DNA from: Patescibacteria group bacterium
GTDB lineage: Bacteria; Patescibacteriota; Patescibacteriia; Magasanikbacterales; GWA2-37-8
Assembly (NCBI GenBank): GCA_004321885.1
Contig: SCQK01000013.1
Location: 64,001-128,000, forward strand
Direction: 5' to 3'
Length of the DNA: 64,000 nt
Part shown: positions 667 to 58,045 of the stretch, piece by piece
Position numbering within the stretch: the stretch's first letter is position 1
How the letters are laid out: every line of letters begins with the position of its first letter
Translations under genes and position numbers: made by a program
The notes under the pieces: model-generated
Told to the model about the DNA's origin: nothing
Database searches by the model: none
What the model saw: only the letters and a program-made list of their open reading frames with translations

Positions 667-698
667 ACAAAAAAACAACCCCGACTAAGTCGGGGTTG
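667..698 (-). terminator. Rho-independent terminator downstream of rpsI: hairpin CAACCCCGACTAAGTCGGGGTTG followed by a T-run on the minus strand
   Basis: Perfect GC-rich inverted repeat at 676-698 followed (minus strand) by TTTTTTTGT. Same CCCGACTNAGTCGGG palindrome family seen elsewhere in the window. Confidence 0.6.
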
Positions 699-705
699 TG
701 TCGGA

Positions 706-1152
706 TTATCGTTTCGCCCACTGCGGAGCGCGTCTGGCTTTTTTGAGGCCGAATTTCTTCCGTTCTTTCACGCGCGGGTCGCGCGTCAGATACCCATTGG
801 TTTTTAGGGTTTTGCGCAGCTGTTCATCCCATTTGAGCAGGGCCCGCGCGATTCCGAGCTGAACCGCAACCGCCTGCCCTCTTTTGCCGCCGCCCTTAAC
901 TTTTACCGAAACGTCAAAATTCTTTTCTTTGGCAACGGCGCCAAGCGGCGCGACAACTAATTCGCGCTGTTCATATTCGGGAAAATAAATCTCCAACGGC
1001 TTGCCATTGATTGCAACATCTCCTTTTCCCAAACTCAACCGCACGCGCGCCGCGGCTGATTTGCGGCGCCCCACCGCGACGGCGGTTTCGCTTGCGGCAG
1101 GAGCTTTCACTGAAACCGGCCGCGCGCTTTTTTTCGCGGAAACTTTTGGCAT
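706..1152 (-). CDS. rpsI: 30S ribosomal protein S9
   Basis: GRRKSAAARVRL...VKGGGKRGQAVAVQLGIARALL...YLTRDPRVKERKKFGLKKARRAPQWAKR; classic S9 C-terminus. ATG at 1152 chosen; a GTG at 1173 overlapping the rplM stop is an alternative. Confidence 0.9.
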   Translation of the reverse strand: MPKVSAKKSARPVSVKAPAASETAVAVGRRKSAAARVRLSLGKGDVAINGKPLEIYFPEYEQRELVVAPLGAVAKEKNFDVSVKVKGGGKRGQAVAVQLGIARALLKWDEQLRKTLKTNGYLTRDPRVKERKKFGLKKARRAPQWAKR

Positions 1153-1169
1153 AAAACTTTGTTCAACTT

Positions 1170-1529
1170 TCACTTAAAACTAATCCTTTGCAGTCTTAAT
1201 TCCCTCATTTTGTTTTTCGGCAGCATTTTTGACACGGCCAAAATAATCGCTTTTTCCGGCTCGGCGGCCATAACCTCTTTGGCCGGCTTTTCTTTCAAGC
1301 CGCCCGGGTGCATGCTGTGATGCCGGTAAACCTTCTGCTGAATTTTTTTGCCGGAAAAATAAACCTGCCCGGCGTGGAGCACCCTCACGCGGTTATTTTT
1401 ATCCACATGCGGAGCATAATCCGGTTCATTTTTGCCCATCAAAAAGACACTTATTTCGGTGGCCACCCGGCCCACGGCCTTGCCGGCCGCGTCAACCTGA
1501 AATTTTTTGCCCTTAATTTTATTGCTCAT
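1170..1529 (-). CDS. rplM: 50S ribosomal protein L13
   Basis: MSNKIKGKKFQVDAAGKAVGRVATEISVFLMGKNEPDYAPHVD...; L13 family. ATGA overlap with the rplQ stop. Confidence 0.9.
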   Translation of the reverse strand: MSNKIKGKKFQVDAAGKAVGRVATEISVFLMGKNEPDYAPHVDKNNRVRVLHAGQVYFSGKKIQQKVYRHHSMHPGGLKEKPAKEVMAAEPEKAIILAVSKMLPKNKMRELRLQRISFK

Positions 1530-2711: not shown

Positions 2712-2734
2712 ACTGTTCAAAATTTTACCCCTCC

Positions 2735-2767
2735 TCAATCCTCCCCTTAAATAAGGGGGGGATAAGC
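2735..2767. repeat. Palindromic element, family D (CCCCTCCTCAATCCTCCCCTTAAATAAGGGGGGG), intergenic between rpoA and rpsD
   Basis: Near-identical copy at 34084-34117; nested inverted repeat CCCCTTAA/TTAAGGGG. Confidence 0.6.
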
Positions 2768-3399: not shown

Positions 3400-3406
3400 A
3401 AATCGT

Positions 3407-3436
3407 GTCATTCCCCCGACTAAGTCGGGGGAATCC
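3407..3436. repeat. Palindromic element, family A (GTCATTCCCCCGACTAAGTCGGGGGAATCC), intergenic between rpsK and rpsD
   Basis: Outer arms ATTCC/GGAAT enclosing the inner hairpin CCCCCGAC-TAA-GTCGGGGG. Copies at 6030-6060 and 19311-19341 lie in frame in alaS and mnmA. Confidence 0.7.
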
Positions 3437-4881: not shown

Positions 4882-5349
4882 TCAAGGGGCGGCTGGCAAA
4901 TTATCCCCATGATTTCCGCTGTCATTCCCGCCCGCGAGTGGAAATCCATTTGCGTACACCCAGTATTTATACAATAAAAAATTCCAGGCCACGGCCACGG
5001 CAATATTTGCCACGCGCGCCAGGCGATAATCCAGGCCGAATTTTTCGTTAAAAAACCACATCCAGCCAATGGCGATGATGTAATTCAAAAACATTACCAC
5101 CAAAAAACGGGCCGCCTGCGTGGCGGCGCATCCGCGGGCTCCAAAAGACCAGTATTTATTCAGCAAAAAAACATAAGCCACCATAAACACCTGGTTTATG
5201 GCCACGGCCGCAACCGGACGCAGACGGGCATATTCTTTGAGCAAATAAAGCGAGCCGACGTCCAAAAACAAGGCGCTAAGCCCCACCAAAAAATATTTGG
5301 CAAACTGCGCTCGGCTGGCCCACAGTTTTTTTATAATATCTTTTATCAT
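4882..5349 (-). CDS. GtrA-like family membrane protein (putative polysaccharide-synthesis flippase component)
   Basis: MIKDIIKKLWASRAQFAKYFLVGLSALFLDVGSLYLL...YKYWVY fits the GtrA/DPM pattern. ATG at 5347-5349 overlaps the alaS stop (ATGA). Confidence 0.55.
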   Translation of the reverse strand: MIKDIIKKLWASRAQFAKYFLVGLSALFLDVGSLYLLKEYARLRPVAAVAINQVFMVAYVFLLNKYWSFGARGCAATQAARFLVVMFLNYIIAIGWMWFFNEKFGLDYRLARVANIAVAVAWNFLLYKYWVYANGFPLAGGNDSGNHGDNLPAAP

Positions 5350-7202
5350 TCTAATATCGCCTTTATCCTCCGCACGCCGGCGCTCACTGCCTCTTCTTTG
5401 ATAATGCGGAATTTTCCCAGCACACCCGTGTGCTCCACGTGCGGTCCGCCGCATATTTCGCGGCTAAAACATTGCGAGTTCTCGTGGGCTTCAACTTTGG
5501 CTTGCGAGTCGCCCACGGAATAGACCTTGACTTTTTGCCCGTAACGTGCTTCAAACAATCCAATGGCCCCCAATTTTTTGGCCTGTTCCACGCTCATTTC
5601 TTCAAAAACCACCGTATAATCGCGCTTTATGGCATAGTTGACAAGTTCTTCAATTTGTGCTTTCTGATTTTCAGTCAGCTTCTCGGGATGGCTAAAATCA
5701 AAGCGCAAACGCTCGGCCGTAATATTGCTGCCGCGCTGTGTCACATGCTCGCCCAACACCTTGCGCAGGGCGGCGTGGAGCAAATGCGTGGCCGTGTGGT
5801 ATTTTATGGACATCTCGCCGGTATCAGCCAGCCCGCCCTTGAATTTTTGCTCGGCGCCGGCCCGAGAAAGCTCCTGATGCTTTTTCATTTCCTCGTTAAA
5901 TCCTTTGATATCAACACTTAATCCTTTTTCCTCCGCCAATTCTATCGTCAGTTCAATCGGGAAGCCATAACTTTGATACAGGTCAAAAGCATCTTTCGCG
6001 GAAATTATTTTTCCGCCGTCAGTCACATTGTCATTCCCCCGACTAAGTACGGGGGAATCCAGTAACTCCTCAAATTTCGCCATTCCTCGTTCAATCGTAT
6101 TCCTAAATTTACTCTCCTCTTTTGCCATTTCGTTTATCACAAACTCGCGGTTGCGTTCCACTTCCGGATAAACATCGCTAAAAATTTTGATTGTTTCCTC
6201 GGCCATGGCCGAGGAAAAATTTTCTTTTATTCCCAGCAGTCGTCCGTGGCGCACGGCGCGGCGAATCAAACGTCTCACCACATACCCCTGGTCCACGTTG
6301 CTTGGCGCTATCCCCTTGTCATCGCCCATGATCATGGTGGCGGTACGCAAATGGTCGGCGATAACGCGCATTGATTTGGTGACTTCCGCGTTTTCCACGT
6401 ATTCGCGCCCGGAAATCTCTTCAATTTTTTGTATCAAAGGCCAAAAAGTGTCCACCTGAAAAACATCGGCAAAGCCGTTTAAGGCGACCAGCGTGCGCTC
6501 CAGACCCATGCCAGTGTCCACGTTCTTTTGTTTGAGGGGCGCGTAACTACCATCAACCAGTTTATTGTACTCCATGAAAACGTCGTTCCAAATTTCCAGC
6601 CAATTGTCTTCGTCGTTTTCCGGGTTGCTCTTTTTGGGTGGAAGCTCAGACTCCCCCATCCAATAAAACATCTCCGTGTCCGGACCGCACGGCCCGGTGG
6701 CTCCGGCCGGCCCCCACCAATTATTTTCTTTCGGTAAAAAACAAATTTTGTGCTCTGGCACGCCCGCTTCTTTCCAAATTTCGGCCGATTCTTCGTCGCG
6801 CTCGGCTGTTTTGCCTCCCTTAAACACGGACACGGCCAATTTCTTCGGGTCCAGCCCCAGCCATTTTTGGTCCGTTAAAAATTCCCAACTCCACTGTATC
6901 GCTTCCTTTTTAAAATAGTCACCCAGCGACCAGTTGCCGAGCATTTCAAAAAAAGTATCGTGGCGGTTGTCCCCCACTTCGTCAATATCCTGCAAGCGCG
7001 CGCATTTTTGCGCGCTGGCCAAACGCTTGCCCTCGGGATGTTTTTCGCCCAGTAAATACGGCACCAGCGGGTGCATGCCGGCGGTGGTAAACAAAACCGT
7101 CGGATCGTTTTCCGGAACGAGCGAGGCCGACAAAATCACCTTGTGTCCTTTACTGACAAAAAAATCCAAATATTTCTGCCGCAGTTGTTTTGATATGAGC
7201 AT
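5346..7202 (-). CDS. alaS: Alanyl-tRNA synthetase, short form lacking the C-terminal C-Ala domain; contains one in-frame palindromic insert
   Basis: Class II catalytic core (FTTAGMHPLVPYLLG, FFEMLGNWSLGDYFK), editing-domain motifs HTATHLLHAALRKVLGEHVTQRGS and CGGPHVEHTG. 618 aa against about 870 typical. Insert LDSPVLSRGND is encoded by the family A element at 6030-6060. Confidence 0.85.
   Translation of the reverse strand: MLISKQLRQKYLDFFVSKGHKVILSASLVPENDPTVLFTTAGMHPLVPYLLGEKHPEGKRLASAQKCARLQDIDEVGDNRHDTFFEMLGNWSLGDYFKKEAIQWSWEFLTDQKWLGLDPKKLAVSVFKGGKTAERDEESAEIWKEAGVPEHKICFLPKENNWWGPAGATGPCGPDTEMFYWMGESELPPKKSNPENDEDNWLEIWNDVFMEYNKLVDGSYAPLKQKNVDTGMGLERTLVALNGFADVFQVDTFWPLIQKIEEISGREYVENAEVTKSMRVIADHLRTATMIMGDDKGIAPSNVDQGYVVRRLIRRAVRHGRLLGIKENFSSAMAEETIKIFSDVYPEVERNREFVINEMAKEESKFRNTIERGMAKFEELLDSPVLSRGNDNVTDGGKIISAKDAFDLYQSYGFPIELTIELAEEKGLSVDIKGFNEEMKKHQELSRAGAEQKFKGGLADTGEMSIKYHTATHLLHAALRKVLGEHVTQRGSNITAERLRFDFSHPEKLTENQKAQIEELVNYAIKRDYTVVFEEMSVEQAKKLGAIGLFEARYGQKVKVYSVGDSQAKVEAHENSQCFSREICGGPHVEHTGVLGKFRIIKEEAVSAGVRRIKAILE
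6030..6060. repeat. Palindromic element, family A, in frame within alaS
   Basis: gtcattcccccgactaagtacgggggaatcc; the reading frame continues through it. Confidence 0.7.
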
Positions 7203-7941: not shown

Positions 7942-9000
7942 CTATTTTTTCTTCAACGTCGTTATCGGCCTACTTTGAGTAATGTATACTGTACCGCTTT
8001 CCATGGCCCATTCAATATCACAAGGGAAACCATAGTGTTGCTCAATTTTCTTGCACACCTTGGCCACTTCAATAATTTCTTTGCCGGTCAGCTTCTGCTT
8101 ACCCCCCTCTTTCTCACTCAACTCAATCCATTTGTTGGAGTCTCTCCCCTTTATAAGGGGAGAGTTAGTGAGGGGTAATTTCGCTTTCACCAACTTCTTC
8201 GTCTGTACTCCAACATTTATATCTACAATACTCATTTCGCTTTTGGAAACAATATAACTGTCGGGTGTAATCTGGCCGCTCACAATCGCTTCGCCCAATC
8301 CAAACCCGGCCTCAATAATCATCTGGTCGGGGTCTTCAGTAACCGGGTGCACAGTAAAGGCGATGCCCGAAATTTCCGACTGCACCATTTTCTGCACCAC
8401 TACCGCGACCGAAACATAATGGTCAATCAGTTTTTTTTCGTGACGATAAAAAATCGCGCGGGGGGTGAAAAGCGAAGACCAGCATTGCTTAACTTTTTCA
8501 ACAACGTTAACGCGCGTGGTGTTCAAATAGGTTTCCAGCTCCCCGGCCCAACTGGCCACGTCGCTGTCCTCGGCCGTAGCGCTGCTTCTCACCGCCACCA
8601 GGTTGTCATCCTGAACTTGTTTCAGGATCCCCGTTCGCCGTCTGTCATTCAGACCCCGCTTAGCGGGGGAGGAATCCCTCCCGCCCAACTCATCAAACGC
8701 CCCCAATATCTCATTCTCCAAATCTTTCGGCATGGGCGTGTCGTGTATCACATCGCGCAAAACATTACTCGCCTTGTCCACGCTGTTGGTGTCTTCGGGA
8801 TCCACGTCAGCCAATCGCGCCTCAATCTCTTCTTTCAATTTCGTTTCCTCAATAAATCTGTCAAACGCGCTCGCCAATACCACAAAACCCGGCGGCACAC
8901 GCAGTTTCGCTTTAGTCATCTCGCCAAGCGAAGCGCCCTTCCCGCCCGCGCTGGCCACATCTTTCTTGGAAATATCCTTAAAAAATTTTATGTGAGGCAT
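7942..9000 (-). CDS. Stand-alone PEP synthase / pyruvate phosphate dikinase N-terminal nucleotide-binding (PPDK_N, ATP-grasp) domain protein; carries three in-frame palindromic inserts
   Basis: VASAGGKGASLGEM, RSSATAEDSDVASWAGELETYLN, AVVVQKMVQSEISGIAFTVHPVT are PPDK_N hallmarks. No phosphohistidine or PEP-binding domain follows. Inserts [32 protein letters not shown] (elements at 8605-8630 and 8644-8680) and NSPLIKGRDSN (8143-8175). Confidence 0.8.
   Translation of the reverse strand: MPHIKFFKDISKKDVASAGGKGASLGEMTKAKLRVPPGFVVLASAFDRFIEETKLKEEIEARLADVDPEDTNSVDKASNVLRDVIHDTPMPKDLENEILGAFDELGGRDSSPAKRGLNDRRRTGILKQVQDDNLVAVRSSATAEDSDVASWAGELETYLNTTRVNVVEKVKQCWSSLFTPRAIFYRHEKKLIDHYVSVAVVVQKMVQSEISGIAFTVHPVTEDPDQMIIEAGFGLGEAIVSGQITPDSYIVSKSEMSIVDINVGVQTKKLVKAKLPLTNSPLIKGRDSNKWIELSEKEGGKQKLTGKEIIEVAKVCKKIEQHYGFPCDIEWAMESGTVYITQSRPITTLKKK
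8143..8175. repeat. Palindromic element, family D (CTCTCCCCTTTATAAGGGGAGAGTTAGTGAGGGG), in frame in the PPDK_N gene
   Basis: Reverse-complement copy at 22373-22405 in the PEP-synthase-like gene, where it encodes SPLYKGRVSEG. Confidence 0.7.
8605..8630. repeat. Palindromic element, family B (GTCATCCTGAACTTGTTTCAGGATCC), in frame in the PPDK_N gene
   Basis: Hairpin ATCCTGAA-CTTGT-TTCAGGAT; further copies at 30589, 31039, 44822, 54761 and inverted variants at 54820 and 55176. Confidence 0.7.
8644..8680. repeat. Palindromic element, family A variant (GTCATTCAGACCCCGCTTAGCGGGGGAGGAATCCCTC), in frame in the PPDK_N gene
   Basis: Similar copy at 43602-43640 in dnaX. Confidence 0.65.
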
Positions 9001-42447: not shown

Positions 42448-42448
42448 T

Positions 42449-42475: not shown

Positions 42476-42481
42476 AGTAAC

Positions 42482-44846: not shown

Positions 44847-44860
44847 TCCAACCCGTAACC

Positions 44861-48061: not shown

Positions 48062-48697
48062 ATGCGAACTTCCCTTCCATTTACCCATCGCCAGCTCTCC
48101 CCTTCGCCGCCTTCGCGGCATGAGAAAGGGGAGAGGGGGACGACTGCAATATTGCCAGCTATATTGCTCATCGCGTTTGGCATTGCGGCGAGATTTTTGC
48201 CCCATCCGGCGAACTTTACTCCCATCGGCGCCATTGCTATTTTTGGCGGACTGTATCTGCCCAAAAAACTTTCTGTTTGGCTGCCTCTCTCGGCCATGCT
48301 TATCAGCGATATTTTTATCGGCTTTTATTCATTGCCGATTATGGCCAGCGTGTACGTCGGCTTTATGTTCGCCAATCTGCTATCCTTGACAGCGCGGGGC
48401 AAACTCGCATATACAAAAACCGCCTTTGGGCGGTTTGGGACTATTGCCGGCGCCACGGCGCTAAGTTCAGCCATTTTTTACCTCTTGACAAACGCGGCGG
48501 TTTGGGCATTCGGCTCTATGTATCCGCACAATTTCACCGGCCTTTTGGAATCATACTACCTGGCTCTCCCCTTCTTCCGAAACAGCCTGGCGGGCGACGT
48601 TTTCTTCACTTTCGTTTTAGTAGGCGGGATGGAGTTGCTAAAACATACGTTAAGGGATTCCTCCGCTCTCCGCCGGCTGGCGAATCGATCGGAATGA
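48062..48697 (+). CDS. Integral membrane protein (possible ECF-transporter S-component-like); the N-terminal region contains an in-frame family D palindromic element
   Basis: Five or six hydrophobic segments (ILPAILLIAFGIAARF, FTPIGAIAIFGGLYL, ...). The element at 48104-48138 encodes LSPSPPSRHEKGERG. The true start may lie downstream. Confidence 0.4.
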   Translation: MRTSLPFTHRQLSPSPPSRHEKGERGTTAILPAILLIAFGIAARFLPHPANFTPIGAIAIFGGLYLPKKLSVWLPLSAMLISDIFIGFYSLPIMASVYVGFMFANLLSLTARGKLAYTKTAFGRFGTIAGATALSSAIFYLLTNAAVWAFGSMYPHNFTGLLESYYLALPFFRNSLAGDVFFTFVLVGGMELLKHTLRDSSALRRLANRSE

Positions 48698-48699
48698 CA

Positions 48700-51230: not shown

Positions 51231-53333
51231 TTATGTATGGGATTGCTTCCCGCCAGAGGCGGGCAGGCGCTCTTCGCTCGCAATGACATTTTTTTTATGC
51301 CCCAAAAACATCCAATTGCCATACTCATTGAACCAGCGGAAAACAATGCGGATATTGATGCGGGTAACGGTAATGGCCGTAAACATGGAGACCAACGTGC
51401 CGATGGCCAACGTGACGGCAAAGCCCTGCACAAACCCGGTGCCAAACCATATAAGGAATCCGCAACTGATAAGGGTGGTGATATTGCTGTCGCGAATGGA
51501 CGGCCAGGCGCGCGCGAACGACTCCTCGGCCGCCGACAGCAAACTGCGGCCATTGCGTAATTCTTCTTTCATGCGCTCAAACACCAGCACATTGGCGTCT
51601 ACGGCCATACCGATAGACAAAATAAAGCCGGCAATGCCCGACAAGGTTAAAGTTACTCCGATAATCTTAAAGATGGCCAAACTTAAAAGGGCGTAGACGA
51701 GCAGAGAAACATTGGCCAACAAGCCGGGAAAGCGATAATAGCCAATCATGAAAAGCAAAACTAAAATCAAACCAACAATGCCGGCGAAAAAACTTTTACG
51801 CAGATACTCGGAACCCAAAGTGGCGTCCACTTTCTGCTGGCTGATGAGGTCTACGGCCACGGGCAAAGCGCCGGCGTTGAGGCGCTGGGACAAAAGCCGC
51901 GCTTCGCCGAGCGTGAAACTGCCCGAGATGACGGCCGAGCCGCTGGTGATGGCTTCGTTCACGCGCGGAATGCTAATGGGCTCACCGTCCAAAAATATGG
52001 CCACGTTCTTGCCCACATTGCGCGTGGTGATATCGCCGAACAATTTTGTGCCTTCTTCGTTGAATTGCAGATTGACCTGCACTTGTCCGGACTGATTATC
52101 CTGGGTTACCTCGGCGCGCTTGAGCTGCTTGCCCGACAAGCCCGAGCTTTTCCATTCCTCGGCCGGCGGCACGACATCGGAAGCCTGTTTAGTCTTCACG
52201 TACACGCGGGCCACCTCATATTCCCTGGACGGCTTTTCATCTTTTTTGTAAATAATGTGAAAACCGAATTTTGTTTCCACCGCATTGGACACAGCGCCCT
52301 TGGGCATCGCGCCCGCCGCCTCTTCAAACTCCGGCACCATTTGGCCCTTCTTAAACCAGCCCAGCTCTTCGCCGCGCACTTCCAATTTTTTATCCGGAGA
52401 ATATTGCTGTACCAACTGGGCAAAATTGGCGGGCGACGCCTGGGCTTTTATTTCACCGGCTCTTTGGCGGGCCTGGTCTTTGTTCAATTTGCTTTCACAC
52501 CCTTCGGCGCCGGCATAACAAACCAACAAGTGCGACGCGTTTATCATTTTTTCGCCGTCGCGGCCGGAGAGCCGTTTTACCACGTTCAAGCCGTCAAAAC
52601 TTTTCACCAGGGTTTTGCCCGCCTGGCCGTCTTTGGCTTTCTCGGCCCAAGCAAAAATTTCCGGATAAATTTCTTTGGTAATAAATCCCAGATTGCCGCC
52701 CTTGTCTTTGCTGGCCTGGTCTTCGGAATATTGGGCCGCGATTTTGCCGAAATCGGCCCCGGGTTTTAGGGCCGCGGTTAGAGCTGTTTTGGCTTTTTTA
52801 TCGGCCGCGCTGTTAAAAACGTCCAGGTCTTTTTTTTCTTGGGGTGTCAAATCGCGGGCCGGGTCGTGATTTTCTTCCTTAAATTCCAGTATCGGAGTTT
52901 CGCCAATCATTTTGATGGCCTGATTGACATCGGTAACGCCGGGCAATTCCACAATCACGCGATAATCGCCGCCGACCTTGGTGGTTTGCACCAATGGCTC
53001 GGCCACGCCCAGGCCCCCGCGCACGCGCCGCTCTATCACGTCGCGCACGCCTTCCACGGCGTCGCCGCGGTCGCCTTCGGGAATGGTTTCTGTTTTGGCC
53101 TGATAAACCAAATGCGCGCCGCCCTGCAAATCCAGGCCCAGATTAAAGCCCTTATCCGGCAAGCGGGGCAAACCGATGTTGGCCGCGTTGTTGAGCCAGT
53201 CTATGCCGCGGTTGGCGAACGCCGGCAAAACAATAAGCAGGGTGGCAATGGCCAAAGCGACCACGCCGGCCGCGTGCCATTTTAATTTTTTCGCCGACGA
53301 AACCTTGTTGGAAATTTTTACTGCCATAAACAC
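51231..53333 (-). CDS. secD: Protein translocase subunit SecD with an inserted parvulin-type (PpiC-like) peptidyl-prolyl isomerase domain; C-terminal tail and stop supplied by a family C element
   Basis: SecD N-terminus and DLQGGAHLVYQ, C-terminal TM bundle. Middle segment ...INASHLLVCYAGAEG...GEELGWFKKGQMVPEFEEAAGAMPKGAVSNAVETKFGFHIIYK resembles the parvulin rotamase fold. Last residues …ASEERLPASGGKQSHT* are read from 51238-51287. Confidence 0.8.
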   Translation of the reverse strand: MFMAVKISNKVSSAKKLKWHAAGVVALAIATLLIVLPAFANRGIDWLNNAANIGLPRLPDKGFNLGLDLQGGAHLVYQAKTETIPEGDRGDAVEGVRDVIERRVRGGLGVAEPLVQTTKVGGDYRVIVELPGVTDVNQAIKMIGETPILEFKEENHDPARDLTPQEKKDLDVFNSAADKKAKTALTAALKPGADFGKIAAQYSEDQASKDKGGNLGFITKEIYPEIFAWAEKAKDGQAGKTLVKSFDGLNVVKRLSGRDGEKMINASHLLVCYAGAEGCESKLNKDQARQRAGEIKAQASPANFAQLVQQYSPDKKLEVRGEELGWFKKGQMVPEFEEAAGAMPKGAVSNAVETKFGFHIIYKKDEKPSREYEVARVYVKTKQASDVVPPAEEWKSSGLSGKQLKRAEVTQDNQSGQVQVNLQFNEEGTKLFGDITTRNVGKNVAIFLDGEPISIPRVNEAITSGSAVISGSFTLGEARLLSQRLNAGALPVAVDLISQQKVDATLGSEYLRKSFFAGIVGLILVLLFMIGYYRFPGLLANVSLLVYALLSLAIFKIIGVTLTLSGIAGFILSIGMAVDANVLVFERMKEELRNGRSLLSAAEESFARAWPSIRDSNITTLISCGFLIWFGTGFVQGFAVTLAIGTLVSMFTAITVTRINIRIVFRWFNEYGNWMFLGHKKNVIASEERLPASGGKQSHT
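51238..51287. repeat. Palindromic element, family C (half-copy: GGGATTGCTTCCCGCCAGAGGCGGGCAGGCGCTCTTCGCTCGCAATGAC)
   Basis: Shares GATTGCTTCG and CGCTCGCAATGAC with the 45614 and 53855 copies. Confidence 0.6.
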
Positions 53334-53342
53334 AATTATTAT

Positions 53343-53367
53343 GTCATTCCGGGCTTGACCCGGAATC
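53343..53367. repeat. Palindromic element, family A variant (GTCATTCCGGGCTTGACCCGGAATC), downstream of tRNA-Val
   Basis: Read directly. Confidence 0.6.
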
Positions 53368-53387
53368 TATTTCCGTGTGGACGGTGC

Positions 53388-53460
53388 AGGACTCGGACCT
53401 GCGGCCCTTGCGATGTAAACGCAATGCTCTACCAACTGAGCTAACCGTCCGTCCGCATCT
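53388..53460 (-). tRNA. tRNA-Val (anticodon TAC)
   Basis: RC: GGACGGT-TA-GCTC-AGTTGGTA-GAGC-A-TTGCG-TTTACAT-CGCAA-GGGCC-GCAGG-TCCGAGT-CCTGC-ACCGTCC-A. Confidence 0.8.
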
Positions 53461-53505
53461 CGGCTATGATTTTACCCCTTTTTGCCTTTTTTGGCAAGAA
53501 CCATT

Positions 53506-53530
53506 GTCATTCCTGCGCAAGTAGGAATCC
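53506..53530. repeat. Palindromic element, family A variant (GTCATTCCTGCGCAAGTAGGAATCC), upstream of tRNA-Val
   Basis: Read directly. Confidence 0.6.
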
Positions 53531-53537
53531 ACAATCA

Positions 53538-53840
53538 TTACGATTCGTCCAAAATTATCTTTTCTTTGAATCCTCCCCTGTCTTCGGCCTTGGTGGCGCG
53601 TATTTTTTCCAGCTCAACGGCGTCATAACCCTTGAAATCGCGCATGGAATTGAGAACTTCGTAAAGGTCGCCCAAATCATGTGGCGATTCCGAGGAAAAA
53701 AACTCTCCCAGCTCCTCCAGCAGTTTTTCCTTCAACTTTTTCCAGTATTCCTCACTGCCGGCGATATGGTACACCGCCTGTCCGCCTTTGGCTTTGATGA
53801 TTTCGGGAATCTTGTCCCGCACGAGTTTATTGTATTTCAT
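53538..53840 (-). CDS. MazG-like / HisE-like nucleoside-triphosphate pyrophosphohydrolase domain protein
   Basis: MKYNKLVRDKIPEII...EEYWKKLKEKLLEELGEF...DLGDLYEVL pattern of MazG-like all-alpha NTP-PPases (PF12643-like). Confidence 0.55.
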   Translation of the reverse strand: MKYNKLVRDKIPEIIKAKGGQAVYHIAGSEEYWKKLKEKLLEELGEFFSSESPHDLGDLYEVLNSMRDFKGYDAVELEKIRATKAEDRGGFKEKIILDES

Positions 53841-53854
53841 ATAATCTAATCGCT

Positions 53855-53936
53855 GTCATTGCGAGCGAGCCACAAGCGAGCGCGGCAATCCCTTCCGTGT
53901 TTGGGATTGCTTCGCCCCTTCGGGGCTCGCAATGAC
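53855..53936. repeat. Palindromic element, family C (GTCATTGCGAGCGAGCCACAAGCGAGCGCGGCAATCCC…GGGATTGCTTCGCCCCTTCGGGGCTCGCAATGAC)
   Basis: 82-bp nested palindrome between the MazG-like gene and the NUDIX fragment. Confidence 0.7.
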
Positions 53937-53967
53937 ATTTAAGTTTCAAAATAATTTTTACCTGTTT

Positions 53968-54733: not shown

Positions 54734-54760
54734 ACTACACAATTCGTTGTGGCAACAATC

Positions 54761-54786
54761 GTCATCCTGAACTTGTTTCAGGATCC
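54761..54786. repeat. Palindromic element, family B (GTCATCCTGAACTTGTTTCAGGATCC)
   Basis: Read directly; 30 nt from the inverted-orientation copy at 54820. Confidence 0.7.
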
Positions 54787-54819
54787 CCACTGTCCAATTC
54801 GCCGACTCGCTCGATCGGA

Positions 54820-54844
54820 GATGCCGAAACAAGTTCGGCATGAC
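54820..54844. repeat. Palindromic element, family B, inverted orientation (GATGCCGAAACAAGTTCGGCATGAC); left flank of the GIY-YIG gene
   Basis: Loop ACAAG is the RC of family B CTTGT; stem ATGCCGAA/TTCGGCAT. Confidence 0.65.
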
Positions 54845-54865
54845 AGTGACGCGGCTGGAAACTTA

Positions 54866-55159
54866 TCACTCCCATTCGTCGCTCAAGTCTTTCAAAGTGG
54901 GATTAAGTCCTTTTACTAAATTTATTTTCCACTGACGATGCCAATTTTTGATTTGTTTCTCTCTGTTAATTGCGTCACGTGGATCCAAAAAAACTTCGTA
55001 ATAAACTAACTTTTTCAGATTATACTGTTTTGTAAATCCCTCATTGATTCCATTTTTATGTTCTTCAAGCCGACGTTCTAGATTGTTCGTTATACCTACA
55101 TATAAAACCGTGTTGATGATGTTTGTTAAAATATACACATAAAATGTTTTCCCCTCCAT
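54866..55159 (-). CDS. Small GIY-YIG nuclease (COG2827/YhbQ-Slx1-like), second copy, flanked by family B elements
   Basis: MEGKTFYVYILTNIINTVLYVGITNNLERRLEEHKNG...; GIY-YIG (URI) core; 97 aa. Confidence 0.7.
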   Translation of the reverse strand: MEGKTFYVYILTNIINTVLYVGITNNLERRLEEHKNGINEGFTKQYNLKKLVYYEVFLDPRDAINREKQIKNWHRQWKINLVKGLNPTLKDLSDEWE

Positions 55160-55175
55160 ACGATTTGCGATTGGA

Positions 55176-55200
55176 GATGCTGAAATAAATTCAGCATGAC
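55176..55200. repeat. Palindromic element, family B, inverted orientation (GATGCTGAAATAAATTCAGCATGAC); right flank of the GIY-YIG gene
   Basis: Same orientation as the 54820 copy, so the two form direct repeats around the nuclease ORF. Confidence 0.65.
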
Positions 55201-55201
55201 A

Positions 55202-58045
55202 TTACTGGCCGTGACAGCGCTTGTATTTCTTCCCGCTGCCGCAAGGGCAAGGGTCGTTGCGGCCCACCACTTTGCCGGCCTCGTCGCGCACTTTTTTCCC
55301 GGCCGGCGCGGCGCCGTTGTCGCTGGTCTTGCTGGCCCCGCTAAACATCAGATTCCCCGCCTGCATCACCGACGGCGCTATCTGTATTCCCAAATTTACT
55401 TTATAAACCAAATACACCACTTCTTTTTGAATGTAATTAAGCAGTTCGTTGAACATCCGGTAGGTTTCTTTTTTGTATTCCACCAGCGGGTCGTGCTGGG
55501 CATAGCCGCGCAGGCCAATGCCGGTGCGCAAATAATCCACGGCCACCAAATGTTCCACCCACAGATTGTCTATGGCGCGCAGCAATACTTGTTTTTCTAT
55601 CTCGGCCATCATCTCGGGCGGGGCTTGTTTGACCAGCAGTTCCTCGTATTTATACTTGGCCGTTTCTATCAAAAATTCTATGAGTTGCGTCCTAATCGTA
55701 ACATCATCAACCCGCCCGCCCACCGGCGGGGCGCCAAATTCTCCGATTTTTTTCTTTTCATCGTCAGACAGCGGGAAAATGGTCGTCATTGTTTCGGCAA
55801 TTTCTTTCACATTCCAGTCACTGCGGTCTTCGGCGTTGGTATGGAACGAAACCACCTCTTCAATTTCCTGTTCTATCATTTCCAAAATCATGACGCGCAA
55901 ATTTTTTACCCCCTCTTTCGTCTCCCCCTTATCAAGGGGGAGAGAAGCGGTGGACGTCTCCGCCATATCACGAGAGAGAGAAGCGGTTGATTCAAAAGCG
56001 CGCAATACCTCGCGCCGTTTGCCGTAAATCACCTCGCGGTGCTTGTTGAGCACGTCATCGTACTCCAGCAAATGTTTGCGCGTGTCAAAATGCAAACCCT
56101 CCACTTTGCGCTGGGCGCTTTCTATAATGCGCGTAATCATCCCCTGCTCTATGGGCATGTCATCTGGCACTTTAAGGGCGTTCATTACCCCGCGTATTCT
56201 GTCGCCGGCAAAAATACGCATCAGGTCGTCTTCGGTGGAAAGGAAAAATTGCGACTGCCCCGGGTCGCCCTGGCGCCCGCTGCGGCCGCGCAACTGGTTG
56301 TCTATACGCCGGCTCTCGTGGCGCTCGGTGCCCAGCACAAACAAACCGCCGGCCGCGCGCACGCGCCCGGCTTCTTCGGGTACAGGCGGATTACCGCCCA
56401 AAATTATATCCACTCCCCTGCCGGCCATGTTGGTGGCCAGGGTCACGCGCCCGGGCTGGCCGGCCTGCGCGATTATCTCGCCCTCGCGCTCATGATTCTT
56501 GGCGTTTAGAATTTCATGCGCTATTCCCTCTCTTTGCAAATGCAAACTCAAGGCCTCGTTTTTCTCCACTGATACCGTGCCTATCAAAACCGGCTGGCCC
56601 TTGGCCTGTAATTCTTTTACCATCTGGGCGATGGCCTTGTGCTTGGCCTCTTCGGTTTTATAAATCCTGTCCGGAAAATTCGTGCGCTGGCTGGGTTTGT
56701 TCGGCGGAATTACCACCACTTCCAGTTTGTAAATTTTGCCGAACTCTTCGGCCTCGGTGACGGCCGTGCCGGTCATGCCCGACAGCTTTTCGTACAAACG
56801 GAAATAATTTTGAAAAGTAACCGTGGCCATGGTCTGACTTTCATGTTGAATGACCACGTTTTCTTTGGCTTCTATGGCCTGATGCAAGCCCTCGCTATAG
56901 CGGCGGCCCGGCATTTTGCGGCCGGTAAATTCGTCCACTATGAGCACCTCGCTGTTTTCCACGATATAGTCGCGGTCGCGCAAGAAAAGCGTCTGCGCCC
57001 GCAAAGCCTGCTCCACGTGGTGCACGGTACGCACCCCGCCCTCGGCGTAAATATTGTCCACGCCCAGCCATTTTTCCATTTTAGCGATGCCGGCTTCGGA
57101 AAGCGTGGCCGAGCGCATTTTTTCGTCTATGTTAAAGTCCTCGTTTTCTTTCAAGCGGCGCACCAGCTCGGCGAATTTGTAATACATGTCGGCCGCTTTT
57201 TCGGCCGGCGCGGAAATAATCAAGGGGGTGCGGGCTTCGTCTATTAAAATGGAGTCAACCTCGTCCACGATGGCGTAAAAAAACGGCCGCTGTACCATCT
57301 CGCTCAAATTTTGCACCATGTTGTCGCGCAAATAATCAAAGCCATATTCGTTGTTGGTGCCATAAGTGACGTCGCAGCCGTAGGCCTCTTGGCGCGAGCA
57401 GGGTTCCAAAAATTCCGTTTCCACTTTGTACATTCCTTTGGCGTCGCGTTCTTTGTCTGCTTCACTGCCCTCCTGTAACCCCACCCCCTGCCACCACACC
57501 AAAGATTTTGGTGTGGTGGCCTGCCCATCCCCTAATAGGGGAGGGGTTTTTGCGTAGCGAAAAGAAACACCAAGCTGTTGAATCACGCCCACGCTCAATC
57601 CCAAAGCATCATATATCTGCCCCATCCACACAGCGTCGCGTTTGGCCAAATAATCATTCACAGTCACCACGTGCACTCCCCTGCCGGCCAAGCCGTTTAG
57701 ATACACAGGCAAGGTAGCCACCAGGGTTTTGCCCTCGCCAGTGCCCATCTCAGCGATAGCGCCGCTATGCAAAGCCATGCCGCCCTTTAGCTGGACGTCA
57801 AAATGGCGCATACCAGTCAAACGTTTTGATGTTTCGCGCACCACGGCAAACGCCTCGGGCAAAATATCGTCCAGGGTGGCGCCGTCGGCCAAACGCTTTT
57901 TGAACTCATCGGTTTTGCCCCGCAACTGTTCCAAACTCAAAGACGCCATCCCGCTTTCCAGGGCATTGATTCTTTCCACGAGCGGCTTGTATCCGGCAAT
58001 CACTTTCGCATTCGGGTCGCCAAAAATTCTGCTAAAAAAAGACAT
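55202..58045 (-). CDS. secA: Preprotein translocase ATPase SecA with in-frame palindromic inserts
   Basis: MSFFSRIFGDPNAKVIAGYKPLVERINALE, GEGKTLVATLPVYLNGLAGRGVHVVTVNDYLAKRD, HQAIEAKE, TNMAGRGVDIILGG, C-terminal zinc motif CPCGSGKKYKRCHG; inserts PPLLGDGQATTPKSLVWWQGVG (57481-57546) and ASLPLDKGETKE (55921-55944). ATG at 58043-58045. Confidence 0.9.
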   Translation of the reverse strand: MSFFSRIFGDPNAKVIAGYKPLVERINALESGMASLSLEQLRGKTDEFKKRLADGATLDDILPEAFAVVRETSKRLTGMRHFDVQLKGGMALHSGAIAEMGTGEGKTLVATLPVYLNGLAGRGVHVVTVNDYLAKRDAVWMGQIYDALGLSVGVIQQLGVSFRYAKTPPLLGDGQATTPKSLVWWQGVGLQEGSEADKERDAKGMYKVETEFLEPCSRQEAYGCDVTYGTNNEYGFDYLRDNMVQNLSEMVQRPFFYAIVDEVDSILIDEARTPLIISAPAEKAADMYYKFAELVRRLKENEDFNIDEKMRSATLSEAGIAKMEKWLGVDNIYAEGGVRTVHHVEQALRAQTLFLRDRDYIVENSEVLIVDEFTGRKMPGRRYSEGLHQAIEAKENVVIQHESQTMATVTFQNYFRLYEKLSGMTGTAVTEAEEFGKIYKLEVVVIPPNKPSQRTNFPDRIYKTEEAKHKAIAQMVKELQAKGQPVLIGTVSVEKNEALSLHLQREGIAHEILNAKNHEREGEIIAQAGQPGRVTLATNMAGRGVDIILGGNPPVPEEAGRVRAAGGLFVLGTERHESRRIDNQLRGRSGRQGDPGQSQFFLSTEDDLMRIFAGDRIRGVMNALKVPDDMPIEQGMITRIIESAQRKVEGLHFDTRKHLLEYDDVLNKHREVIYGKRREVLRAFESTASLSRDMAETSTASLPLDKGETKEGVKNLRVMILEMIEQEIEEVVSFHTNAEDRSDWNVKEIAETMTTIFPLSDDEKKKIGEFGAPPVGGRVDDVTIRTQLIEFLIETAKYKYEELLVKQAPPEMMAEIEKQVLLRAIDNLWVEHLVAVDYLRTGIGLRGYAQHDPLVEYKKETYRMFNELLNYIQKEVVYLVYKVNLGIQIAPSVMQAGNLMFSGASKTSDNGAAPAGKKVRDEAGKVVGRNDPCPCGSGKKYKRCHGQ
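57481..57546. repeat. Two adjacent palindromes in frame in secA: GCCACCACACCAAAGATTTTGGTGTGGTGGC and CCATCCCCTAATAGGGGAGGGG
   Basis: Read directly; 11-bp and 7-bp perfect stems. Confidence 0.6.

What the first reader, a model, noticed from the sequence alone, without database searches (positions are those of the whole stretch)
667..57546. Genome-wide families of short nested palindromic elements, many inserted in frame into essential genes (RPE-like selfish DNA)
Seen in sequence: at least five related families recur across the window, more than 40 copies. They are A (GTCATTCC-[hairpin]-GGAATCC), B (GTCATCCTGAACTTGTTTCAGGATCC and its inverse), C (GTCATTGCGAGCG…GGATTGCTTCG…CGCTCGCAATGAC, about 80 bp), D (CTCCCCTT(T)ATAAGGGGAG-type) and E (CCCGACTNAGTCGGG). 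Copies lie inside the open reading frames of alaS, mnmA (x4), cysS (x2), dnaX (x2), secA (x2), the PPDK_N gene (x3), the PEP-synthase-like gene, dus and a membrane protein. They add short peptides ([30 protein letters not shown]) without breaking the frame. Other copies provide the C-terminal residues and stop codon (GT2, SecD, C39 peptidase) or serve as terminator hairpins (after rpsI, after the tRNA-Thr gene). The same peptide segment appears in unrelated proteins (SPLYKGRVSEG in two different PEP-family enzymes). That argues for insertion, not ancestry. Established knowledge: Rickettsia palindromic elements (RPEs) insert in frame into protein-coding genes. Nothing comparable is generally annotated for CPR genomes as far as I can judge from the sequence alone.
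Basis: partly seen in the sequence, partly recalled or inferred. Interest (0 to 1): 0.75.

Follow-up and report, generated by a model that had tools for sequence, protein, structure and literature searches.

The report
Hairpin repeats inserted in CPR genes
This small-genome (CPR) bacterium is peppered with short hairpin DNA repeats of a known kind (CGTC-tagged REP / Ssn-related motifs, relatives of Neisseria dRS3 and some Rickettsia palindromic elements), half of which sit in frame inside essential genes, and the window also encodes the small GIY-YIG nuclease that typically accompanies such repeats.

Summary
About 29 units share one design, (T/C)GTC-AT[stem]-loop-[stem']AT-CC. A strict search finds 22, against 1.2 in shuffles. 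They have three clamp types: A (ATTCC), B (ATCCTGAA) and C (ATTGCGAG). Some units form inverted doublets.

D (9 hits vs 0.1) and E (5 vs 0) are also non-random. They lack the GTC tag and were not shown to be related to A-C.

Comparison with an element-free syntenic relative, 120 CysRS homologues and PDB homologues shows that the intragenic copies are true in-frame insertions of 8-20 aa in loops. They are polymorphic among relatives and recur at hotspot sites.

The units match the published CGTC-tagged REP definition. One equals the Neisseria NTS consensus apart from its first base.

The first, 54866-55159(-), encodes 97 aa and has B units on both sides. In 80 metagenomic relatives, such units are 20-fold enriched within 250 nt of the gene, with tags pointing outward. 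This is the Ssn/SRM signature. The second, 20985-21245(+), has E hairpins on both sides, inside a split tRNA-like gene.

Verdict: a new CPR member of a known kind, with an unusually high in-frame load. The mobilisation mechanism is inferred, not shown.

The parts
3406..3436 (+). A unit with E-type interior (TGTCATTCC-CCCGACTAAGTCGGG-GGAATCC). It overlaps the 5' end / start region of rpsD.
   Evidence: The fold gives an 11-bp stem, -12.1 kcal/mol.
4920..4951 (+). Degenerate A unit encoding the C-terminal tail of a GtrA-like protein (4882-5454, - strand).
6029..6062 (+). A unit inside alaS, read antisense as LDSPVLSRGNDN. It is identical over 34 nt to the mnmA copy.
   Evidence: It is an 8-aa insertion relative to A. 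aeolicus AlaRS.
8604..8632 (+). B unit inside the PPDK_N gene (peptide GILKQVQDD).
8643..8679 (+). A-long unit (ATTC clamp, interior hairpin CCCCGCTTAGCGGGG) inside the PPDK_N gene.
17225..17252 (-). A unit TGTCATTCCCGCGAAAGCGGGAATCCAG inside a PEP-utilizer protein (VIPAKAGIQ). It equals the Neisseria NTS consensus except for its first base.
19309..19342 (-). A unit inside mnmA (SFPRLSTGES). It is the same 34-mer as in alaS.
21604..21641 (-). Degenerate tagged unit in the C-terminal region of the PEP-synthase-like gene (AVIPRSPE).
   Evidence: It is an 8-aa insertion relative to L004.
25935..25983 (-). Composite A unit (two heads) inside ligA ([17 protein letters not shown]).
   Evidence: It is an 11+3-aa insertion relative to L004.
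30588..30616 (+). B unit in cysS, site 1 ([10 protein letters not shown]).
   Evidence: It is a 10-aa insertion relative to PDB CysRS and L004. It is absent from about 80% of 120 homologues. The loop has low pLDDT.
31038..31066 (+). B unit in cysS, site 2, a variable inter-helix linker.
42448..42477 (+). A unit, intergenic, between the TraG/TrwB-like gene and dnaX.
43562..43641 (+). Two A units (43562-43590 and 43601-43641) in the variable linker of dnaX.
44821..44849 (+). B unit supplying the last residues and the TGA stop of the C39 peptidase gene.
45613..45694 (.). C doublet (inverted pair, tags outward). It is shared by the convergent GT2 and dus genes and encodes both C-termini.
   Evidence: Fold energy -32.1 kcal/mol, z = -9.
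45859..45941 (.). C doublet inside dus (CHCERSEATPSDKAGDCFVG).
   Evidence: It is a 19-aa insertion relative to L004.
48655..48699 (-). A-long unit supplying the C-terminus and stop of the DUF6580 membrane protein.
51240..51288 (-). Single C unit supplying the C-terminus and stop of secD.
53342..53938 (.). Cluster of units around tRNA-Val and a MazG-like ORF: A at 53342-53369, A at 53505-53532, and a C doublet at 53854-53938.
54760..54845 (.). B doublet immediately downstream of GIY-YIG gene 1. The half next to the gene has the ATGCCGAA clamp and the same orientation as the gene.
54866..55159 (-). GIY-YIG gene 1: a 97-aa single-domain nuclease and a candidate Ssn homologue.
   Evidence: Pfam PF01541, E = 1.2e-19. 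More than 8000 homologues of about 95-105 aa. Relatives are flanked by the same units.
55175..55201 (-). B unit (ATGCTGAA clamp) 15 nt upstream of the GIY-YIG gene 1 start, in the same orientation as the gene.
2725..2762 (+). D unit (TTACCCCTC-N5-CCTCCCCTT-AAAT-AAGGGGGG) just after rpsD.
8142..8180 (-). D unit inside the PPDK_N gene (SPLIKGRDS).
19449..19779 (.). Two D units in mnmA (19449-19471 and 19736-19779).
   Evidence: They are insertions of about 20 aa and 6 aa relative to PDB MnmA.
20036..20065 (-). D-like hairpin (CCCCTC-ATGCCA-GAGGGG) in the mnmA N-terminal region (ISPHARGGGEGG).
22370..22407 (+). D unit in the PEP-synthase-like gene (SSSPLYKGRVSEG).
   Evidence: It is a 12-aa insertion relative to L004.
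34081..34118 (+). D unit, intergenic.
48095..48135 (.). D-type clamp with a long interior, in the 5' region of the DUF6580 ORF. It probably lies upstream of the true start codon.
55906..55990 (+). D unit plus a 36-nt tandem duplicate inside secA.
   Evidence: It is an insertion of about 30 aa relative to B. subtilis SecA.
57470..57548 (-). Composite D-like palindrome containing a perfect 14-bp hairpin, inside secA.
   Evidence: It lies within an insertion of about 54 aa relative to PDB SecA.
675..699 (.). E hairpin followed by a T-run after rpsI. It looks like an intrinsic terminator.
61455..62055 (.). Two E-type terminator-like hairpins: 61455-61484 after tRNA-Trp, and 62025-62055 with a 14-bp stem.
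20931..21406 (+). Split tRNA-like gene. Its 'anticodon arm' is an E hairpin (20957-20973 and 21359-21375) inside 40-nt direct repeats. The repeats enclose GIY-YIG gene 2 (20985-21245, 86 aa) and an intact tRNA-Asp (21251-21325).
   Evidence: The arrangement is conserved in L024.

Best explanation
Families A, B and C are one class of oriented hairpin repeat. They are CGTC-tagged REPs, also called Ssn-related motifs (SRM/NTS).

Anatomy: each unit has an unpaired 5' tag (T/C)GTC, a stem whose first two pairs are A-T, a variable interior, and a short CC(A/C) tail. The three families differ only in the clamp at the base of the stem. Units occur singly or as inverted doublets with the tags pointing outward.

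Partner gene: the window encodes a 97-aa single-domain GIY-YIG protein with the features of the Ssn ssDNA endonucleases. B units lie on both sides of this gene.

Inferred history:
1. The hairpins are recognised as single-stranded DNA by this nuclease. This step is inferred.
2. They have been copied around the genome. Copying is supported by the sequence; the mechanism is not known.
3. The genome is about 89% coding, so most landing sites are genes.
4. Only copies that keep the frame, lack stop codons and fall in surface loops, linkers or termini survive selection. These are read through as 8-27 extra residues.
5. Other copies end up supplying stop codons, or lie after genes.

D is a separate oriented hairpin family that behaves the same way, and its partner protein is unknown. 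E is a hairpin module reused in three settings: as a terminator, as the interior of A units, and as the arms flanking a second GIY-YIG gene.
For: Shown:
- The common architecture is strongly non-random: 22 units against 1.16 in shuffles.
- The units fit the published CGTC-REP definition (tag often TGTC, AT-first stem of 8-9 bp, 4-5 nt loop, CCA tail). Of the 22 units, 19 carry TGTC. Stem and loop sizes are 8 bp/4 nt and 8 bp/5 nt.
- One copy equals the NTS consensus CGTCATTCCCGCGMAVGCGGGAATCYRG apart from base 1. The published SRM regex hits 3 copies, against 0.15 in shuffles.
- In-frame insertions are verified against an element-free relative and against PDB homologues.
- Presence is polymorphic, and different element types recur at the same CysRS loop in other CPR lineages.
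- The CysRS inserts lie in low-pLDDT loops: 53 and 66, against a mean of 87.6.
- Copying is supported by identical 34-mers in alaS and mnmA that share the same internal asymmetry.
- The GIY-YIG gene scores Pfam E = 1.2e-19 and has B units 15 nt upstream and 21 nt downstream.
- The Tyr9-Tyr20-Glu67 spacing (11 and 47 residues) equals that of the catalytic Y6-Y17-E64 mutated in SsnA.
- All 5 independent homologue contexts have flanking B-type units.
- In 80 metagenomic relatives, 44 have units within 250 nt and 29 have them on both sides. Density is 2.57 per kb near the gene and 0.13 per kb further away. Upstream units are mostly on the + strand and downstream units mostly on the - strand.
- No transposase domain was found in about 65 window ORFs.
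- The exact B 25-mer occurs in at least 120 genome stretches across many phyla. This fits a widely shared protein-hairpin pair.
Against: - Membership of the GIY-YIG protein in cd10448 (the Ssn clade) could not be tested directly. PDB shows only weak similarity to UPF0213 proteins.
- No cleavage or mobility data exist for this organism. Even for Neisseria, the published work shows ssDNA cleavage and an effect on transformation, not transposition.
- The GIY-YIG genes looked at sit in conserved contexts across samples, so the gene itself is not obviously mobile now.
- Only 4 of 120 loci carrying an exact B copy hold such a gene.
- Net insertion lengths are often shorter than the unit, and flanking codons also differ. 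Simple cut-and-paste of a fixed unit is therefore not demonstrated.
- Only B-type units flank the gene in this window. No partner was seen for A or C here. A-type clamps do flank some relatives.
- Translation through the inserts is inferred from intact frames only.
Confidence: 0.72

Rival explanations
1. The hairpins are host-maintained regulatory or structural elements, such as transcription terminators, mRNA stabilisers or gyrase/supercoiling sites like classical REPs. Their spread reflects selection for function, not mobility. The intragenic copies are incidental.
For: - E copies after rpsI, after tRNA-Trp and at 62025-62055 look like canonical terminators: a GC stem followed by a T-run.
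- 6 of 29 tagged units sit exactly at gene 3' ends, and a convergent gene pair shares one doublet.
- Intergenic DNA holds 31% of the units but makes up only about 11% of the sequence.
- Di Nocera 2013 reports the same 3'-end preference.
Against: - 14 units lie inside essential ORFs, where termination would be harmful.
- Units occur in both orientations relative to transcription.
- Identical copies occur in unrelated genes.
- The units are tightly and directionally associated with a nuclease gene.
- A related genome does without them across 21 kb of the same genes.
Confidence: 0.15
2. They are REP/REPIN-type elements mobilised by a RAYT (IS200/IS605-like HUH tyrosine transposase), or MITEs mobilised by a DDE transposase encoded elsewhere in the genome. 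The GIY-YIG association is coincidental.
For: - The doublet organisation resembles REPINs.
- Only 64 kb of the genome was examined, so a transposase could lie outside the window.
Against: - The tag is (T/C)GTC, not GTAG, which marks RAYT-associated REPs.
- No Y1 or DDE transposase domain was found in about 65 window ORFs.
- Units are enriched 20-fold next to GIY-YIG genes in 80 independent loci.
- Di Nocera 2013 found no RAYT flanked by CGTC units.
Confidence: 0.06
3. The in-frame 'inserts' are ancestral, fast-evolving loops, or assembly artefacts, which happen to be palindromic.
For: - In dnaX, CysS site 2 and the mnmA A copy, the element occupies a linker of about the same length as in relatives.
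- A B-like insert at CysS site 1 is shared by several lineages with a conserved LS.P.G.HPE context. This could be old.
Against: - The same 25-34-nt sequences occur in unrelated genes and in intergenic DNA.
- About 80% of CysRS homologues, including the closest one (77% identity), lack the site-1 insert.
- Three close relatives carry three different units at site 2.
- An independent assembly reproduces the protein exactly.
Confidence: 0.03

Closest known systems
NTS / Ssn-related motifs with the GIY-YIG ssDNA endonuclease SsnA (Chenal et al. 2025, PMC11893778)
   Same: - Both are oriented hairpin repeats with a conserved unpaired 5' (C/T)GTC tag.
- One window copy equals the NTS consensus apart from its first base.
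- The published NTSvar (CGTCAT-ACTCGGG-N5-CCCGAGT-ATC) has the same layout as B.
- A single-domain GIY-YIG gene of about 95 aa is flanked on both sides by the repeats.
- The hairpin interior is free to vary.
   Different: - In N. meningitidis only 2% of NTS copies lie in genes. Here about two thirds touch coding sequence and about half are internal and in frame.
- The B and C clamps are not captured by the published SRM search pattern.
- The host is a CPR/Patescibacteria genome.
- Enzymatic activity and the cd10448 assignment are untested here.
CGTC-tagged REP superfamily, which includes Neisseria dRS3 and R. conorii RPE-4 and RPE-6 (Di Nocera, De Gregorio and Rocco 2013, PMC3733652)
   Same: - The tag is CGTC or TGTC.
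- The stem is 8-9 bp and begins with A-T pairs.
- The loop is 4-5 nt.
- The tail is CCA-like.
- Inverted dimers occur.
- Intragenic copies occur in tRNA synthetase, DNA ligase and replication genes.
   Different: - That survey covered 5 phyla and did not include CPR.
- It found no dedicated enzyme.
- Many units here have long nested interiors (the A-long and C types), beyond the 4-5 nt loop.
Rickettsia palindromic elements (RPE-1 and others; Ogata et al. 2000, as cited in PMC3733652)
   Same: - Palindromic repeats are inserted in frame into functional genes.
- They are tolerated in loops.
- The host is a reduced genome of a host-dependent bacterium.
   Different: - Classical RPE-1 is 100-150 bp. 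Units here are 25-48 nt and doublets about 82 nt.
- Sequence relatedness to individual RPE families was not tested.
REP/REPIN elements with RAYT transposases
   Same: - Short hairpin repeats occur as singletons and inverted doublets.
- They cluster around a small gene for a protein that acts on ssDNA hairpins.
   Different: - Those elements carry a GTAG tag and an HUH tyrosine transposase. Here the tag is GTC and the protein is a GIY-YIG nuclease.
- REPs are overwhelmingly extragenic.

Membership tests
CGTC-tagged REPs (Di Nocera 2013) | [quoted passage not shown] | tested here: met
   Of 22 strict units, 19 carry TGTC, 1 CGTC, 1 GGTC and 1 AGTC. Control heads give 0-2 hits.
CGTC-tagged REPs (Di Nocera 2013) | Stem of 8-9 bp with complementary A-T residues in the first and second positions. 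| tested here: met
   The perfect stem is 8 bp in 11 units and 9 bp in 2. The rest have a 5-6 bp clamp plus a further interior stem. The AT start was part of the search pattern, so it is not an independent test.
CGTC-tagged REPs (Di Nocera 2013) | Loop of 4-5 nt and a 3-nt tail, mostly CCA. | tested here: inconclusive
   The loop is 4 nt at 17225 and 5 nt in all B units. The A-long and C units have long nested interiors. The tail is CCA in 7 A units and CCC or CTC in B and C.
CGTC-tagged REPs (Di Nocera 2013) | Frequent inverted dimers. | tested here: met
   There are four doublets with tags outward: 45613-45694, 45859-45941, 53854-53938 and 54760-54845.
Ssn / SRM system (Chenal 2025) | Repeat matches the NTS or SRM consensus. 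| tested here: met
   One copy matches the NTS consensus apart from base 1. The SRM regex hits 3 copies against 0.15 expected. B and C fit the layout but not the published regex.
Ssn / SRM system (Chenal 2025) | A single-domain GIY-YIG protein of about 94 aa is encoded in the genome. | tested here: met
   54866-55159(-) encodes 97 aa with PF01541 only, E = 1.2e-19. The Y9/Y20/E67 spacing equals that of SsnA Y6/Y17/E64.
Ssn / SRM system (Chenal 2025) | The protein belongs to CDD family cd10448 (the Ssn clade). | not testable with these tools
   No CDD search and no SsnA reference sequence were available. NCBIfam and PADLOC gave nothing specific.
Ssn / SRM system (Chenal 2025) | The gene is flanked by its repeats on one or both sides. 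| tested here: met
   - Window: units lie 15 nt upstream and 21 nt downstream of the gene.
- All 5 homologue contexts have flanking units.
- Of 80 metagenomic loci, 44 have a unit on either side and 29 on both, a 20-fold enrichment near the gene.
Ssn / SRM system (Chenal 2025) | Sequence-specific cleavage of the repeat as ssDNA only. | not testable with these tools
   This needs a biochemical assay.
Rickettsia palindromic elements | In-frame insertion into functional protein-coding genes. | tested here: met
Rickettsia palindromic elements | Sequence membership in the RPE-1 to RPE-8 families of Rickettsia; length of 100-150 bp for RPE-1. | not tested
   No RPE reference sequences were compared. 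Unit length (25-48 nt) differs from RPE-1. The link to RPE-4 and RPE-6 rests on Di Nocera 2013.
REP/REPIN-RAYT | GTAG tag and an associated Y1 (HUH) transposase gene. | tested here: not met
   The tag is GTC. No Y1_Tnp domain was found among about 65 ORFs of the window. The rest of the genome was not seen.

The most novel reading that the evidence does not exclude
Two readings remain open.

1. Ssn-type GIY-YIG nucleases are the long-missing enzyme behind CGTC-tagged REPs and RPE-like elements. In CPR bacteria this system actively writes short hairpin cassettes into protein loops. That would make it a major and recurrent source of the lineage-specific insertions seen in CPR housekeeping proteins. 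The same CysRS loop has been hit independently by A-, B- and D-type units in different lineages.

2. The second GIY-YIG gene, nested with a functional tRNA-Asp between E-hairpin-bearing pseudo-tRNA repeats, would be a new kind of tRNA-gene-associated element that carries its own replacement tRNA.
Probability: 0.25. Interest if true: 0.75.

Novelty: new member of a known kind. Interest (0 to 1): 0.5.

Why it matters
- It joins three literatures that had been separate: Rickettsia in-frame palindromes, CGTC-tagged REPs 'without a transposase', and the 2025 Ssn ssDNA nucleases. All three features occur together in one compact genome.
- It extends them to the Candidate Phyla Radiation, where no description was found in the literature searches.
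- The density of one unit per 2.2 kb, with half in frame in essential genes, is a natural experiment on which protein loops tolerate 8-27 extra residues.
- 'Filled' and 'empty' alleles segregate among close relatives. This makes it directly testable, with metagenomic population data and a simple oligonucleotide cleavage assay, whether Ssn proteins mobilise their hairpins.
- For annotators, these units explain many odd N- and C-terminal extensions, spurious small ORFs and length variation in CPR proteins.

Tried and rejected
- A raw 10-mer census was swamped by A/T-rich low-complexity words, so I dropped it in favour of motif- and hairpin-based searches.
- The published SRM regex is too narrow for this genome, with only 3 hits. 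I replaced it with a tag + AT-clamp + tail search with shuffle controls.
- My first GIY-YIG regex missed both genes, because their motif is FYVY...LYVG rather than GIY...YIG. They were found by reading ORFs and then with an HMM built from homologues.
- The Ssn paper has no supplementary text in the library, so no SsnA reference sequence could be obtained. CDD membership stays untested.
- I looked for GIY-YIG genes near random B copies in 120 genome loci. Only 4 were found, so that direction of the association is weak. The reverse direction is strong.
- PADLOC gave no hit, and PHROGs gave only weak homing-endonuclease similarity. A defence-system or phage homing-endonuclease reading has no support.
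- Rfam and ARAGORN do not recognise the split tRNA-like gene, and found no group I intron there.
- The word-based homologue search for GIY-YIG gene 2 returned only one relative, so its family could not be surveyed.
- Exact B copies in other CPR loci are mostly intergenic (1 of 11 inside a long open frame, against 16 of 120 in other phyla). A high intragenic fraction is therefore not a general property of every CPR genome.
- No conserved target-site motif or target-site duplication was seen around the units.

Full report
**1. What is in the sequence**

Printing every GTCAT in context showed that A, B and C are variants of one design:

- an unpaired tag (T/C)GTC;
- a stem whose first two pairs are A-T;
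- a variable interior;
- the return stem ending in AT;
- a tail C(C/T)(A/C).

Family A has the clamp ATTCC...GGAAT. Family B has ATCCTGAA-CTTGT-TTCAGGAT, with ATGCTGAA and ATGCCGAA variants. Family C has ATTGCGAG...GCAAT. The 80-nt 'C element' and the segment 54760-54845 are inverted doublets of such units with the tags pointing outward.

A search for tag + AT-clamp of at least 5 bp + C tail finds 22 units. One hundred dinucleotide shuffles give 1.16 +/- 1.03, and seven control heads of the same composition give 0-2. Adding copies that the strict filter misses gives about 29 units, or one per 2.2 kb.

Perfect hairpins in general are enriched. Stems of at least 8 bp number 44 against 10-15, and stems of at least 10 bp number 12 against 0-2; the comparison sequences here are Markov-resampled (second-order chain), not dinucleotide shuffles. 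As single-stranded DNA the units fold as designed, with the tag and tail unpaired.

D is a separate oriented element, TTACCCCTC-N5-CTCTCCCCTT-ATA-AAGGGGAGAG, with 9 core hits against 0.11 expected.

E (CCCGAC-N3-GTCGGG) gives 5 hits against 0 expected. It occurs in three settings:
- as terminator-like hairpins with T-runs, after rpsI and at 62025-62055 (an imperfect E-like copy after tRNA-Trp at 61455-61484 is not among the five hits);
- as the interior of three A units;
- as two arms in a tRNA-like context.

**2. Are the intragenic copies insertions?**

Pfam confirms the host genes.

The organism is a Patescibacteria (CPR) bacterium near Candidatus Magasanikbacteria. The source contig is 175,928 bp.

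A relative with a 963-kb contig supplies a syntenic 21-kb locus (L004). That locus contains no unit. Pairwise alignments at 60-78% identity show gaps exactly at the elements:

| Protein | Gap in L004 at the element |
|---|---|
| PEP-synthase-like protein | 12 aa (D) and 8 aa (tagged unit) |
| LigA | 11+3 aa |
| CysS, site 1 | 10 aa |
| Dus | 19 aa (C doublet) |

PDB homologues agree:

| Protein | Insertion relative to PDB homologue |
|---|---|
| CysRS | 10 aa |
| MnmA | 6 aa and about 20 aa at the D copies |
| AlaRS | 8 aa |
| SecA | about 54 aa and about 30 aa at D-type composites |

In 120 CysRS homologues, about 80% read ...WKFSP(A/K)G.KRQMEW... at site 1. Scattered lineages carry, at this same site, B-like segments (HPELVSGS), A-type doublets (VIPTTKEESLS...GMTK) or D-like segments (SPPFQGG, PLSKGE). 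The closest homologue (77% identity) lacks the site-1 insert, while the next closest (73%) has it.

At site 2, three close relatives carry three different tagged units, and L004 carries none.

An AlphaFold model of the window's CysRS has a mean pLDDT of 87.6. Both inserts fall in non-regular, low-confidence segments: residues 201-210 average 53 and residues 351-360 average 66.

The exact protein was also assembled independently from run SRR8426592.

The copies in alaS and mnmA are the same 34-mer, including the same internal asymmetry, in opposite orientation relative to their genes. This indicates copying and not convergence.

Not every copy adds length. In dnaX, CysS site 2 and the mnmA A copy, the unit occupies a linker of similar length to that in relatives.

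Tally of the 29 tagged units:
- 14 are internal and in frame;
- 6 supply a C-terminus or stop codon (C39, GT2, Dus, DUF6580, SecD, GtrA);
- 9 are intergenic or lie at gene starts.

The window is about 89% ORF. Intergenic DNA is therefore still about three-fold over-represented, as expected if most genic insertions are removed by selection.

**3. What they are**

A literature search on the motif led to Chenal et al. 2025.

- That paper defines the Neisseria NTS as CGTCATTCCCGCGMAVGCGGGAATCYRG. It extends the older dRS3 repeat.
- It generalises the NTS to Ssn-related motifs.
- It shows that these hairpins flank, and are cut as ssDNA by, a 94-aa single-domain GIY-YIG nuclease called SsnA.

The window copy at 17225-17252 is that consensus apart from its first base. 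The published degenerate pattern hits 3 copies against 0.15 expected.

Di Nocera et al. 2013 defined the CGTC-tagged REP superfamily earlier. Its features are a tag that is often TGTC, a stem of 8-9 bp starting with A-T pairs, a loop of 4-5 nt, a CCA tail, inverted dimers and intragenic copies. They placed Neisseria dRS3 and R. conorii RPE-4 and RPE-6 in it. They also noted that no dedicated transposase was known. Units A-C fit this definition.

**4.

The ORF at 54866-55159(-) encodes a 97-aa protein that is only a GIY-YIG domain (Pfam E = 1.2e-19).

- Tyr9, Tyr20 and Glu67 have the same spacing as the catalytic Y6, Y17 and E64 of SsnA.
- A B unit (ATGCTGAA clamp) ends 15 nt upstream of the start codon.
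- Another B unit (ATGCCGAA clamp), which forms half of a doublet, begins 21 nt after the stop.
- The protein has more than 8000 homologues of about 95-105 aa in CPR, Nitrospirae and other phyla.
- All five independent genomic contexts examined have B-type units within about 150 nt of the gene.

In 80 metagenomic loci encoding relatives at 52-67% identity:
- 44 have a unit within 250 nt, and 29 have one on both sides;
- unit density is 2.57 per kb near the gene and 0.13 per kb further away;
- upstream units are mostly on the + strand (36 against 8) and downstream units mostly on the - strand (39 against 15), so the tags point outward;
- the clamps include ATCCTGAA (19), ATGCTGAA (13) and the NTS-like ATTCCCGC (7).

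This reproduces the genomic signature that defines the Ssn/SRM system.

No transposase domain occurs in about 65 window ORFs. PADLOC gives no hit.

The exact 25-mer of B is present in at least 120 genome stretches. They come from CPR lineages, Sphingomonadales, Bacteroidota, Treponema, Firmicutes, Melainabacteria, Dependentiae, Rickettsiaceae and others. The hairpin-protein pair is therefore shared across phyla. In those genomes most exact B copies are intergenic.

**5. Mechanism, and what is inferred**

Shown:
- the architecture of the units;
- that they are non-random;
- that the intragenic copies are insertions and that the frame is preserved;
- that they lie in loops;
- evidence of copying;
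- the nuclease-gene association.

Inferred:
- that the 97-aa protein recognises the tag and clamp in ssDNA, by analogy with SsnA, for which the loop is dispensable; this fits the free interiors seen here;
- that it takes part in spreading or maintaining the units;
- that the inserts are translated.

How a 25-50-nt hairpin is copied remains unknown. No target motif or target duplication was found, and the codons next to the inserts also differ. The GIY-YIG genes examined sit in stable contexts. Domestication is therefore as likely as current mobility, for example control of incoming ssDNA as in Neisseria. The window also encodes type IV pilus and TraG-like proteins.

**6. A second nuclease locus**

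The ORF at 20985-21245(+) encodes an 86-aa GIY-YIG protein (Pfam E = 1e-9).

- It lies inside a split tRNA-like gene. A perfect 40-nt direct repeat (20945-20984 = 21347-21386) encloses the ORF and an intact tRNA-Asp.
- Joining across the repeat gives a cloverleaf. It is identical to tRNA-Asp in the acceptor, D and T arms. In place of the anticodon arm it has an E hairpin with a 7-bp stem and a 3-nt loop.
- The same arrangement occurs around the only homologue found, from a Magasanikbacteria relative.
- E hairpins therefore flank this nuclease gene in the way B units flank the first one.
- I did not resolve what this element is.

**7. Verdict**

This is a CPR representative of the CGTC-tagged REP / Ssn-related-motif class. 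It has an unusually high in-frame load and its candidate nuclease lies in the same window. It is a new member of a known kind, of moderate interest. It gives a clean system for testing whether Ssn nucleases mobilise their hairpins.

Noticed in passing
window 20931-21406; L024 2880-3560: An 86-aa GIY-YIG gene and an intact tRNA-Asp(GTC) are nested between 40-nt perfect direct repeats. The repeats are pieces of a tRNA-Asp-like gene whose anticodon arm is replaced by an E hairpin. tRNA-Asp itself is flanked by a 13-bp extension of its acceptor stem (21238-21257 / 21317-21336). The arrangement is conserved in a Magasanikbacteria relative at 60% protein identity. ARAGORN and Rfam do not call the split gene.
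   Followed up: partly
The genomes span CPR lineages, Sphingomonadales, Bacteroidota, Treponema, Heliobacteriaceae, Melainabacteria, Dependentiae, Elusimicrobia, Rickettsiaceae and others. That is remarkable cross-phylum conservation for a non-coding hairpin.
   Followed up: partly
CysRS homologues P0015, P0022, P0027, P0048, P0061, P0097, P0107, P0114 (alignment): Other CPR CysRS proteins carry 30-60-aa inserts at the same loop (after WKFS). These read like A-type doublets (VIPTTKEESLS...SLGMTK) or D-like units (SPPFQGGVG, LPLSKGE). The site is an insertion hotspot across lineages.
   Followed up: partly
window 9909-17836: A low-GC stretch (0.42-0.43, against about 0.50 elsewhere) holds five paralogous genes ending in a PEP-utilizers mobile domain, with 72-93% identical 54-nt 3' ends. 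Interspersed are a DUF3800 gene and, nearby, a Fic gene and two HepT/MNT toxin-antitoxin pairs (7220-7877, 9037-9864).
   Followed up: no
window 55919-55990: Inside secA there is a tandem 36-nt duplication (83% identity) of a D unit with its flank. It encodes two 12-aa repeats (STASLSRDMAET / STASLPLDKGET).
   Followed up: no
window 3406-3438 and 54820-54845: The reverse complement of the tag (ATGAC), or the GTCATG variant, creates ATG codons. The unit at the rpsD 5' end may provide or overlap the true start codon. The unit at 54820-54845 creates a spurious N-terminal extension (MPNLFRHL...) of an 81-aa ORF.
   Followed up: no
window 51231-53333: SecD carries an inserted PPIC-type peptidyl-prolyl isomerase domain (residues about 253-374) between its N-terminal region and its P1 head domain.
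   Followed up: no
window 26482-29924 and 39901-42447: Type IV pilus genes (prepilin peptidase, pilins, PilM) and a TraG/TrwB-like ATPase lie among the element-rich genes. This is relevant if the nuclease acts on incoming ssDNA, as SsnA does in Neisseria.
   Followed up: no
window 53342-55201: There are 8 tagged units in 1.9 kb, around small accessory genes: tRNA-Val, a MazG-like ORF, a NUDIX ORF, an 81-aa ORF of unknown function, and GIY-YIG gene 1. The cluster resembles the repeat clusters described in Neisseria.
   Followed up: partly
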